Source: Candidatus Jordarchaeales archaeon
Lineage (GTDB): Archaea; Asgardarchaeota; Jordiarchaeia; Jordiarchaeales; Freyrarchaeaceae
Length of the DNA: 32,000 bases
Assembly: GCA_038858525.1 (NCBI GenBank)
Contig: JAWCFL010000013.1
Coordinates: 8,668-40,667 of the forward strand
Direction: 5' to 3'
Shown: piece after piece, positions 22,661-22,890 of the stretch
How positions within the stretch are numbered: the stretch's first letter is position 1
Layout: each line of letters starts with the position of its first letter
The notes under the pieces: model-generated
What the model was told of the DNA's origin: nothing
The model's database searches: none
Seen by the model: only the letters and a program-made list of their open reading frames with translations
Translations under genes and position numbers: made by a program

Positions 22661-22701
22661 ACCTTAAAAAACGCGAAAATTAAATGGTGGGCGGGCCAGG
22701 A

Positions 22702-22731
22702 TTCACACGCGCATGCCAAACGCATGTGCGA
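22702..22731 (-). other. tRNA intron 3 (30 nt, T-loop, position 59/60)
   Basis: Outer helix is the T-stem; central helix TTCA/TGTG (one U-U mismatch); bulges AG|T and AA|T; intron helix CGCACATGC/GCATGCGCG (8 of 9 pairs). Confidence 0.85.
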
Positions 22732-22765
22732 CTTGAACCCGGGGCCTCCGGCTCCCGAAGCCGGT

Positions 22766-22795
22766 CATATGCAGTGAAACATCCAGTTTCACCGA
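22766..22795 (-). other. tRNA intron 2 (30 nt, position 25/26)
   Basis: Central helix TATG/CATA is perfect; bulges AC|T and TG|A; 9-bp intron helix CGGTGAAAC/GTTTCACTG; outer helix TGG/CCG. Confidence 0.9.
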
Positions 22796-22806
22796 GTCAT
22801 ACCATG

Positions 22807-22827
22807 TTCCCCGCCTCATATGAAGCT
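22807..22827 (-). other. tRNA intron 1 (21 nt, D-loop, best fit 15/16)
   Basis: Bulge AG|A, central helix GTCT/GGGG (3 of 4 pairs), bulge AA|C, intron helix GCTTC/GAGGC. Relaxed BHB motif. Confidence 0.7.
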
Positions 22828-22875
22828 CTAGACTACCCGCCCTTTCTCCTAAGAGGATAAGCGACCAGAAACACC

Positions 22876-22890
22876 TAATTAAATTTTCTC
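22876..22890 (-). promoter_or_regulatory. BRE/TATA promoter of the tRNA gene
   Basis: GAGAAAA-TTTAATTA ending ~33 nt upstream of tRNA G1. Confidence 0.6.

What the first reader, a model, noticed from the sequence alone, without database searches (positions are those of the whole stretch)
22766..22828. Interlocked D-arm introns, including a rare 15/16 site
Intron 1's central helix uses exon nucleotides 10-13 (GTCT) and intron 2's uses 20-23 (TATG). These involve both strands of the mature D-stem, so the precursor must adopt an alternative fold in which both splice motifs coexist and the D-stem cannot form. Removing intron 2 first would free 22-25 to pair with 10-13 and could destroy intron 1's weak motif (G-G mismatch, poor outer helix). 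That predicts an obligatory splicing order. Of the four possible registers tested by hand (15/16, 16/17, 17/17a, 17a/18), 15/16 fits best. I do not recall it as a common intron position. It abuts G15, the archaeosine site, so modification may depend on splicing.
Basis: partly seen in the sequence, partly recalled or inferred. Interest (0 to 1): 0.6.

Follow-up and report, generated by a model that had tools for sequence, protein, structure and literature searches.

The report
Three-intron proline tRNA gene, Asgard archaeon
This is a real proline tRNA gene of a hot-spring Asgard archaeon (Jordarchaeia) cut by three small enzyme-spliced introns, two of them in the D-arm; that is normal for this lineage, and the proposed compulsory splicing order is not supported.

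Summary
Observation confirmed. The minus strand at 22842-22685 encodes tRNA-Pro(CGG) with introns at 15/16 (21 nt), 25/26 (30 nt) and 59/60 (30 nt). ARAGORN and Rfam miss the gene. After removing the three inserts, ARAGORN calls a 74-nt tRNA-Pro(CGG).

The 15/16 register is fixed without using the motif: other Asgard tRNA-Pro genes with an uninterrupted D-arm match exon 1 + exon 2 letter for letter through position 24.

Intron 2 has a canonical bulge-helix-bulge. Intron 1 has a relaxed one: 3 of 4 central pairs, a G10-purine mismatch in all 14 relatives examined, and no outer helix.

Interpretation only partly supported.
- The two motifs share no nucleotide, and their predicted folding costs add.
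- Removing intron 2 does not raise the predicted cost of intron 1's motif (9 genes).
- Freyarchaeia and Baldrarchaeota tRNA-Pro genes carry the same 15/16 intron with no 25/26 intron.
- 15/16 is not rare here: at least 5 genes in this genome, and several in the published Freyarchaeia table.

Heavily interrupted Asgard tRNA genes are already published (Valentin-Alvarado 2024; bioRxiv, October 2026). This scan has noted many like it elsewhere in this genome, and other first-stage readers noted this same stretch. No RNA data could be obtained.

The parts
22685..22842 (-). Whole tRNA-Pro(CGG) gene: 155-nt precursor body plus encoded CCA (22687-22685)
   Evidence: Read by eye. After the three inserts are removed, ARAGORN calls tRNA-Pro(cgg), 74 nt + CCA. 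Unspliced, ARAGORN and Rfam find nothing.
22828..22842 (-). Exon 1, tRNA positions 1-15 (GGGCGGG UA GUCU AG); G15 = 22828
   Evidence: Identical to the 5' end of D-arm-uninterrupted homologues.
22807..22827 (-). Intron 1 (15/16), 21 nt. Relaxed HBh' motif: hairpin 22826-22822 / 22817-22813, GGGG strand 22812-22809, bulges 22829-22827 and 22808-22806
   Evidence: 84 of 200,000 shuffles reach the motif. The same geometry is seen in 14 tRNA-Pro genes.
22796..22806 (-). Exon 2, 11 nt (C16-C25: CAUGGUAUGAC), carrying G18 G19 and the 3' strand of the D-stem
22766..22795 (-). Intron 2 (25/26), 30 nt. Canonical hBHBh': exon UAUG 22801-22798 pairs with intron CAUA 22771-22768; 9-bp inner helix 22794-22786 / 22780-22772; bulges 22797-22795 and 22767-22765
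   Evidence: 5 of 200,000 shuffles reach the motif. Wobble and compensatory changes are seen in 5 orthologues.
22732..22765 (-). Exon 3: A26, anticodon arm (CCGGC UUCGGGA GCCGG, anticodon CGG), variable loop, 5' T-stem and T-loop up to position 59
22702..22731 (-). Intron 3 (59/60), 30 nt. The T-stem serves as the outer helix; 3 of 4 central pairs
   Evidence: 2,635 of 200,000 shuffles reach the motif. The position is conserved in orthologues.
22688..22701 (-). Exon 4: U60, 3' T-stem, 3' acceptor strand, A73
22877..22890 (-). AT-rich box (AAAATTTAATTAGG) 35-48 nt upstream of G1; possible archaeal TATA element (inference only)
   Evidence: Sequence read; not tested.
22662..22684 (-). T-rich tract after CCA (TTTAATTTTCGCGTTTTTT); possible archaeal terminator (inference only)
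   Evidence: Sequence read; not tested.

Best explanation
This is the functional tRNA-Pro(CGG) gene of a Jordarchaeia (Asgard) archaeon, interrupted by three protein-spliced introns at 15/16, 25/26 and 59/60.

In the precursor, the acceptor stem, anticodon arm and T-stem can form as in the mature tRNA. The D-arm is replaced by two side-by-side intron hairpins. Each presents a bulge-helix-bulge whose 4-position central helix borrows exon bases: 10-13 for intron 1 and 20-23 for intron 2.

The genome's two-paralogue splicing endonuclease is inferred to be a broad-specificity (alpha-beta)2 type. It would cut each motif two bases into each 3-nt bulge, and RtcB would join the exons.

Intron 2 is a canonical substrate. 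Intron 1 is a relaxed HBh' substrate, defined by its tight 5' bulge and GC-clamped hairpin.

The two motifs are structurally independent, so either intron can be removed first. The D-stem and the G15 environment form only after both are gone.

The 15/16 intron is the older one. It is shared by all three proline isoacceptors and by Freyarchaeia, and a look-alike occurs in Baldrarchaeota. The 25/26 and 59/60 introns were added later in this family.

Shown: gene structure, boundaries, motifs, conservation, presence of the enzymes, thermodynamic independence. Inferred: actual cleavage, order, enzyme type.
For: Gene and boundaries:
- The spliced product is tRNA-Pro(cgg).
- Exon 1 + exon 2 equals the uninterrupted D-arm of L025, L029 and L031.

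Motifs:
- Motif geometry and shuffle tests.
- 14 genes share H5 GUCU, bulge AG|R, a variable but paired hairpin, H3 GG[GA][GA] and bulge AA|C/A.
- Intron 2's central helix keeps all 4 pairs through CAUA, CAUG, CGUA and CGUG, and its inner helix covaries.

Independence:
- Costs are additive, and intron 1's cost is unaffected by removing intron 2.
- Genes with intron 1 only occur in Freyarchaeia, 'J. madagascariense' and Baldrarchaeota, with a comparable predicted cost of 3.4-4.4 kcal/mol.

Machinery in this genome:
- Two EndA-domain ORFs of 193 and 198 aa, RtcB and ArcTGT.

Lineage:
- Congeners are named Candidatus Jordarchaeia QC4 and Jordarchaeum LHC_1308. The same-order genome G006 is CP147778.1, Freyarchaeia, and its coordinates match the published tRNA table.
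- Only 8 RF00005 hits in the 2.09-Mb genome, which fits the published 'heavily interrupted' phenotype.
Against:
- Nearest-neighbour folding ignores tertiary contacts, modifications, protein binding and co-transcriptional folding, so a kinetic order cannot be excluded.
- All predicted motif costs are positive (2.4-5 kcal/mol). The motifs are therefore minority conformers in the model and must be captured by the enzyme.
- Intron 1's central helix has only 3 pairs, two of them G.U in this gene. Cleavage of such a substrate by this lineage's enzyme is assumed from crenarchaeal precedent.
- The genes with intron 1 only are assumed, not shown, to be functional.
Confidence: 0.75

Rival explanations
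1. The two D-arm introns are interlocked and must be spliced in the order intron 1 then intron 2, because removing intron 2 frees 22-25 to pair with 10-13 and destroys intron 1's weak motif.
For: The D-stem and intron 1's central helix are mutually exclusive, and that helix is weak: 3 pairs and a G.G mismatch. Close introns that need ordered removal are a recognised phenomenon in Crenarchaeota (tRNAscan-SE 2.0 paper, PMC8450103).
Against: - The predicted cost of intron 1's motif is unchanged or slightly lower after intron 2 is removed in 7 of 9 genes at 37 C. At 70 C it rises by at most 0.1 kcal/mol in any of the 9.
- The D-stem of that intermediate costs 4.0-9.1 kcal/mol at 37 C across the 9 genes, and 4.6 for this gene.
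- The motifs share no bases and their costs add.
- Conserved genes in Freyarchaeia, 'J. madagascariense' and Baldrarchaeota carry the same weak 15/16 motif with no 25/26 intron at all.
Confidence: 0.08
2. Order is constrained kinetically rather than structurally. The introns must be removed one at a time, in either order. If both were cut before any ligation, the 11-nt exon 2 would be held only by about 3 D-stem pairs and would be lost at growth temperature.
For: Exon 2 is 11 nt. After a double cleavage its only secondary-structure contacts are U11:A24, C12:G23 and G10:C25. This follows from the structure and has not been tested. Earlier notes of this scan report still smaller exons in this genome.
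Against: Tertiary contacts (G18/G19 with the T-loop) and continued binding by endonuclease or ligase could retain the fragment. There are no data either way.
Confidence: 0.15
3. The locus is a decaying pseudogene or a misread, and the inserts are not introns.
For: Standard finders see no tRNA. Two other proline isoacceptor genes exist in the genome.
Against: - Exons are identical or nearly so across 4 genomes of the genus, while the intron loops drift with compensatory changes.
- The spliced product is a clean cloverleaf.
- CCA is encoded, with AT-rich upstream and T-rich downstream tracts.
- Almost all tRNA genes of this genome escape the standard model.
Confidence: 0.02

Closest known systems
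[quoted passage not shown] 2024, PMC11291895; Goswami et al., bioRxiv 10.64898/2026.10.13.758758)
   Same: Same lineage. The genes have several short non-canonical introns per gene, and D-arm introns that standard annotators miss. Motifs are bulge-helix-bulge or relaxed versions, and the endonuclease has two paralogues. The published Freyarchaeia table already lists a 15/16 intron in tRNA-Pro(GGG), starting at gene position 16.
   Different: This particular gene and genome are not singled out in the parts of those papers I read. The papers do not discuss the side-by-side D-arm pair, the invariant G10-purine mismatch, or splicing order. One Freyarchaeia tRNA-Pro(UGG) gene with the 15/16 intron is missing from the published table.
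Multi-intron tRNA genes of Thermoproteales (Sugahara 2007/2008; Fujishima 2010; reviewed in PMC4090602 and PMC4033280)
   Same: Up to three endonuclease-spliced introns at non-canonical sites, including 25/26 and 59/60. Relaxed hBH/HBh' motifs cut by (alpha-beta)2 enzymes.
   Different: A different phylum. 15/16 is not in the review's list of typical positions. Intron-sequence sharing between tRNA types is reported as rare in Asgard (preprint).
Closely spaced or nested introns that need ordered removal (tRNAscan-SE 2.0 paper, PMC8450103)
   Same: Two introns within 11 nt of each other in one arm.
   Different: [quoted passage not shown] Here both motifs can form in the full precursor, with disjoint nucleotides and additive cost.
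D-loop intron of Atabeyarchaeia and family-f26 tRNA-Pro genes (17/17a)
   Same: Same tRNA type and same loop, with a single short bulge-helix-bulge intron.
   Different: The position is two bases downstream. The central helix is a perfect palindrome, CUAG/CUAG. The intron sequence is unrelated, so this is an independent insertion.

Membership tests
Archaeal endonuclease-spliced (bulge-helix-bulge) tRNA intron | The insert is absent from the mature tRNA or from uninterrupted homologues, and removing it restores a cloverleaf | tested here: met
   The product is tRNA-Pro(cgg). The D-arm is identical to L025, L029 and L031.
Archaeal endonuclease-spliced (bulge-helix-bulge) tRNA intron | Two 3-nt bulges on opposite strands, separated by a 4-bp helix, with the cuts 2 nt into each bulge | tested here: met
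   Met in full by intron 2 (4/4 pairs). Intron 1 meets only the relaxed form: 3/4 pairs, with a G10-purine mismatch in 14 of 14 genes.
Archaeal endonuclease-spliced (bulge-helix-bulge) tRNA intron | At least one flanking helix (h or h') | tested here: met
   Intron 1: h' of 5-6 bp and no h. Intron 2: h' of 9 bp and h of 3 bp. Intron 3: h is the T-stem.
Archaeal endonuclease-spliced (bulge-helix-bulge) tRNA intron | Splicing endonuclease and RtcB ligase are encoded | tested here: met
   Two PF01974 ORFs; RtcB at 601 bits.
Archaeal endonuclease-spliced (bulge-helix-bulge) tRNA intron | Excision is observed at the RNA level | not testable with these tools
[quoted passage not shown] | The genome belongs to the lineage | tested here: met
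   Same-genus genomes are titled Candidatus Jordarchaeia QC4 and Jordarchaeum LHC_1308. The same-order genome is CP147778.1, Freyarchaeia.
[quoted passage not shown] | Most tRNA genes are interrupted, and D-arm inserts are missed by standard tools | tested here: met
   Only 8 RF00005 hits in the genome, 5 above the cut-off. This gene is invisible to ARAGORN and Rfam.
Order-dependent (nested or overlapping) multi-intron pre-tRNA | One motif cannot form, or shares nucleotides with the other, until the other intron is removed | tested here: not met
   The motifs occupy disjoint nucleotides (10-37 against 39-81). The joint cost equals the sum of the separate costs. Intron 1's cost is unchanged without intron 2.

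The most novel reading that the evidence does not exclude
The D-arm can only fold after both introns are gone, and G15 is the base at the intron 1 splice junction. Archaeosine insertion by ArcTGT, and other D-arm modifications such as that of G10, could therefore be gated by splicing of the 15/16 intron. The invariant G10-purine mismatch in intron 1's central helix could be a selected feature of that checkpoint, or of a kinetic one-at-a-time splicing rule that protects the 11-nt exon.
Probability: 0.1. Interest if true: 0.55.

Novelty: new member of a known kind. Interest (0 to 1): 0.25.

Why it matters
It adds a well-documented example to a phenomenon published in 2024-2026: Asgard archaea whose tRNA genes are almost all broken by several introns that standard software cannot see.

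Its useful points are modest.
- The boundaries were fixed without using the motif, which shows that a 3-pair, helix-poor relaxed motif is conserved at 15/16 across families of Jordarchaeia. A similar intron sits at the same site in Baldrarchaeota.
- The 15/16 intron predates its 25/26 neighbour.
- Two adjacent D-arm introns need not impose a splicing order.

It does not open a new question.

Tried and rejected
- Literature on catalogued positions: Marck & Grosjean 2003 and Sugahara 2007 are not held. Terms with a slash such as 15/16 cannot be searched. The claim that 15/16 is unusual in classical catalogues therefore rests only on its absence from the list in PMC4090602.
- First genome-wide scan for 15/16 motifs: 1,335 hits, mostly noise, discarded. 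The stricter scan gave 64 hits. Only 5 look like true tRNA genes with a 15/16 intron. Three others (C1:54985-, C4:70053-, C39:981-) have a normal D-arm and were rejected by eye. The count of 5 is a lower bound.
- Alternative registers for intron 1, for example 16/35 in precursor numbering, break the G17:C30 pair and give a D-loop unlike any homologue; rejected.
- Including the outer helix in intron 2's constraint inflated its cost, because that helix competes with the anticodon stem. I recomputed without it.
- Intron 3 of the UGG paralogues fits 59/60 poorly. Its register was not resolved.
- Bacterial matches to the genome-wide pattern (Brevibacillus, Bacillus, Paenibacillus) have no tRNA context and are chance hits. 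L061 is also not a tRNA.

Full report
WHAT IS THERE

On the minus strand, window 22842 to 22685 reads GGGCGGG UA GUCU AG ... CCUGG CCCGCCC A CCA. ARAGORN finds no tRNA in the whole window. Rfam finds nothing at gathering thresholds, and nothing relevant at E up to 10.

By eye and by script the gene is a 155-nt precursor, with window coordinate = 22843 minus precursor position:
- exon 1: positions 1-15
- intron 1: 16-36 (21 nt)
- exon 2: 37-47 (11 nt)
- intron 2: 48-77 (30 nt)
- exon 3: 78-111
- intron 3: 112-141 (30 nt)
- exon 4: 142-155, followed by an encoded CCA

Removing the three inserts gives a 74-nt sequence that ARAGORN calls tRNA-Pro(cgg). In standard tRNA numbering the introns lie at 15/16, 25/26 and 59/60. 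There is none at 37/38. The finding's coordinates (22766-22828) are exactly G15 through the last base of intron 2.

BOUNDARIES FIXED WITHOUT THE MOTIF

A search of 201 Asgard genomes with the deduced mature sequence found tRNA-Pro genes whose D-arm is uninterrupted. Three of them (L025, L029, L031) read GGGCGGGUAGUCUAGCAUGGUAUGAU. That is identical to exon 1 + exon 2 of this gene up to position 24.

Other compact Asgard tRNA-Pro genes read AGCUUGGUA, AGAUUGGUA, AGUAUGGUA and similar, always with three bases between G15 and G18. They also have the U13.U22 D-stem (GUCU/UGAY) that this gene has. The only split of the genomic sequence that yields AG-CAU-GG is 15/16.

THE MOTIFS

A script applied the standard geometry: 4-position central helix H, 3-nt bulges cut after their second base, inner helix h' and outer helix h.

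| Intron | Central helix H | Bulges | Inner helix h' | Outer helix h | Class |
|---|---|---|---|---|---|
| 2 (25/26) | UAUG/CAUA, 4 of 4 | AC\|U and UG\|A | 9 bp | 3 bp (G19:C27, G18:C28, U17a:G29) | canonical hBHBh' |
| 1 (15/16) | GUCU/GGGG: U13:G, C12:G, U11:G, G10.G mismatch | AG\|A and AA\|C | GCUUC/GAGGC | none | relaxed HBh' |
| 3 (59/60) | 3 of 4 | AG\|U and AA\|U | 3 bp, then an A.C mismatch | T-stem | — |

Loose criteria produce about one candidate 'motif' per nucleotide in this sequence, as the October 2026 preprint also warns. I therefore tested only the independently fixed boundaries. Shuffling the intron reaches the observed score in 84 of 200,000 trials for intron 1, 5 of 200,000 for intron 2 and 2,635 of 200,000 for intron 3.

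CONSERVATION

The same three introns occur in the orthologous tRNA-Pro(CGG) genes of three congeneric genomes and of one other genus of the family. They also occur in the tRNA-Pro(UGG) paralogue, in this genome at C1:76214.

Fourteen tRNA-Pro genes were compared: CGG, UGG and GGG isoacceptors from seven genomes in two families. In all of them intron 1 has H5 GUCU, 5' bulge AG|A (AG|G once), a paired but variable hairpin, H3 GG[G/A][G/A] and 3' bulge AA|C (AA|A once). The hairpin variants are GCUUC/GAAGC, GCUGG/CUGGC, GCGU/GUGC, GCUA/UAGC, GCUG/CAGC and UAUCGG/CCGAUA.
- U11 faces G in 8 genes and A in 6, so it is always paired.
- G10 faces G in 10 genes and A in 4, so it is never paired.

The weak 3-pair helix is therefore a conserved property, not decay.

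Intron 2's H3 is CAUA, CAUG, CGUA or CGUG in the five CGG genes. All four positions stay paired, and the inner helix shows double changes.

LINEAGE AND WHAT IS ALREADY KNOWN

A pattern scan of named genome records shows that the congeners are Candidatus Jordarchaeia QC4 and Jordarchaeum sp. LHC_1308.

That paper reports that 92-95% of tRNA genes in these genomes have introns, often several and at non-canonical sites. A bioRxiv preprint of October 2026 (10.64898/2026.10.13.758758) reports:
- 2.2 intervening sequences per tRNA gene in Freyr-, Jordi- and Atabeyarchaeaceae;
- up to five in one gene;
- 30% missed by tRNAscan-SE, half of those in the D-arm;
- two endonuclease paralogues in most genomes.

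In this genome the Rfam tRNA model finds only 8 hits, 5 above the cut-off, in 2.09 Mb. Earlier notes of this scan, which I did not check, describe many three- to five-intron tRNA genes elsewhere in this genome, and other first-stage readers noted this same stretch.

IS 15/16 RARE?

Yoshihisa's 2014 review lists 20/21, 22/23, 25/26, 29/30, 30/31, 45/46, 53/54, 56/57, 59/60 and 3/4 as non-canonical positions, and not 15/16. I could not read the primary catalogues.

In this lineage the site is common.
- A constrained scan of this genome found 15/16 introns of the same build in tRNA-Pro(CGG), (UGG) and (GGG), in tRNA-Thr(CGU) and in a probable tRNA-Lys. This is a lower bound.
- In the published Freyarchaeia table, introns begin at gene position 16 in Pro-GGG, Gly-CCC, Ile2-CAT and Lys-CTT.
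- Baldrarchaeota tRNA-Pro genes carry a very similar 15/16 intron.
- Atabeyarchaeia and one other family have a different D-loop intron in tRNA-Pro, two bases downstream, with a perfect CUAG/CUAG helix. This is an independent insertion.

IS THERE AN OBLIGATORY ORDER?

Three lines of evidence argue against it.

(a) The motifs are disjoint. Intron 1's motif uses precursor positions 10-37 and intron 2's uses 39-81. In ViennaRNA partition-function calculations I forced H, h' and both bulges. At 37 C the cost is 5.0 kcal/mol for motif 1, 2.4 for motif 2 and 7.4 for both together. At 70 C the figures are 3.6, 2.5 and 6.1. The motifs are therefore independent, neither cooperative nor exclusive.

(b) Removing intron 2 changes motif 1's cost from 5.0 to 4.5 kcal/mol in this gene. 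Across nine genes the change is -2.4 to +1.1 at 37 C and -0.8 to +0.1 at 70 C. The feared competitor, the D-stem, costs 4.6 kcal/mol in that intermediate because it must enclose the intron-1 hairpin.

(c) Nature has run the experiment. The following genes have the 15/16 intron and a continuous 22-31 segment:
- Freyarchaeia tRNA-Pro(UGG);
- Freyarchaeia tRNA-Pro(CGG), where the D-loop intron is the only intron and its motif is more irregular;
- 'J. madagascariense' tRNA-Pro(UGG);
- Baldrarchaeota tRNA-Pro(CGG and UGG).

Apart from Freyarchaeia tRNA-Pro(CGG), they keep the same 3-pair helix. The predicted motif-1 cost, computed for all but that gene, is 3.4-4.4 kcal/mol, the same range as here. 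This distribution also makes 15/16 the older intron and 25/26 a later addition in this family, so intron 1 cannot have depended on intron 2.

Ordered removal of very close introns is a known phenomenon in Crenarchaeota (PMC8450103). Its defining feature, a second motif that cannot form until the first intron is removed, is not met here.

Caveat: the folding model ignores tertiary structure, proteins and kinetics. A one-at-a-time rule that avoids losing the 11-nt exon 2 is plausible but untested.

MACHINERY AND THE G15 IDEA

The genome encodes two endonuclease-domain ORFs of 193 and 198 aa. These are consistent with, but do not prove, the broad-specificity (alpha-beta)2 enzyme that cuts relaxed motifs in Crenarchaeota (PMC5829648 abstract; PMC4090602). 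It also encodes RtcB and ArcTGT at 550 bits against a cut-off of 350.

G15 is the last base of exon 1 and sits in the 5' bulge of motif 1. Whether archaeosine formation waits for splicing cannot be addressed with these tools.

VERDICT

The gene is real and conserved. It belongs to an already published class, heavily interrupted Asgard tRNA genes.

The special claims, interlocking with an obligatory order and a rare site, are not supported by the modelling or by the comparative evidence. No RNA data were available.

Minor new points are the invariant G10-purine mismatch of the 15/16 motif in tRNA-Pro, the presence of this intron in two families of Jordarchaeia with a look-alike in Baldrarchaeota, and its precedence over the 25/26 intron.

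Noticed in passing
whole genome G000: The Rfam tRNA model (RF00005) finds only 8 matches, 5 above the cut-off, in this 92.7%-complete 2.09-Mb genome. Nearly all tRNA genes must be too interrupted to be recognised.
   Followed up: partly
L013/L058 (G006 = CP147778.1, about 1501400-1501850, minus strand): A Freyarchaeia tRNA-Pro(UGG) gene has introns at 15/16, in the variable region and in the T-loop. It is absent from the 38-gene tRNA table published for that complete genome (Supp. Data 4 of PMC11291895).
   Followed up: partly
L065 (G004 C31:3295-3485): The tRNA-Pro(UGG) gene of the other genus of the family appears to have five inserts: 15/16, 25/26, one inside the anticodon loop between U34 and G35, one in the variable region and one in the T-loop.
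   Followed up: no
G000 C1:109836-110030 (+), and L066 (Freyarchaeia): tRNA-Pro(GGG) genes carry the 15/16 intron plus about 55 extra bases between position 25 and the anticodon stem. This is probably one or two further introns, which the published table does not resolve.
   Followed up: no
L079, L086, L093, L080: Baldrarchaeota MAGs, and a contig labelled Odinarchaeota AUK032 with a nearly identical tRNA gene, carry a 15/16 intron in tRNA-Pro with the same ends (AG|AGC ... GC GGAG AA|C). The intron is either shared between Asgard classes or convergent. The Odinarchaeota label may be a binning or naming error.
   Followed up: no
G000 C2:6526 (-) and C3:97742 (+): tRNA-Thr(CGU) and a probable tRNA-Lys(UUU) also have 15/16 introns with an AA|C 3' bulge and a G-rich strand facing the D-stem. 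The site recurs across isotypes in this genome.
   Followed up: partly
L084, L094 (JAPDJY01): The genome of the sister genus (G004) is deposited as 'Thermoproteota archaeon S9B3_HD70', although its tRNA-Pro genes and its family placement are Jordarchaeia-like. The name is probably outdated.
   Followed up: no
window 22702-22731 and paralogue L015: The T-loop intron fits 59/60 in the CGG genes. In the UGG paralogues the same register gives a poor central helix (1-2 of 4 pairs), so their true register or motif type is unresolved.
   Followed up: no
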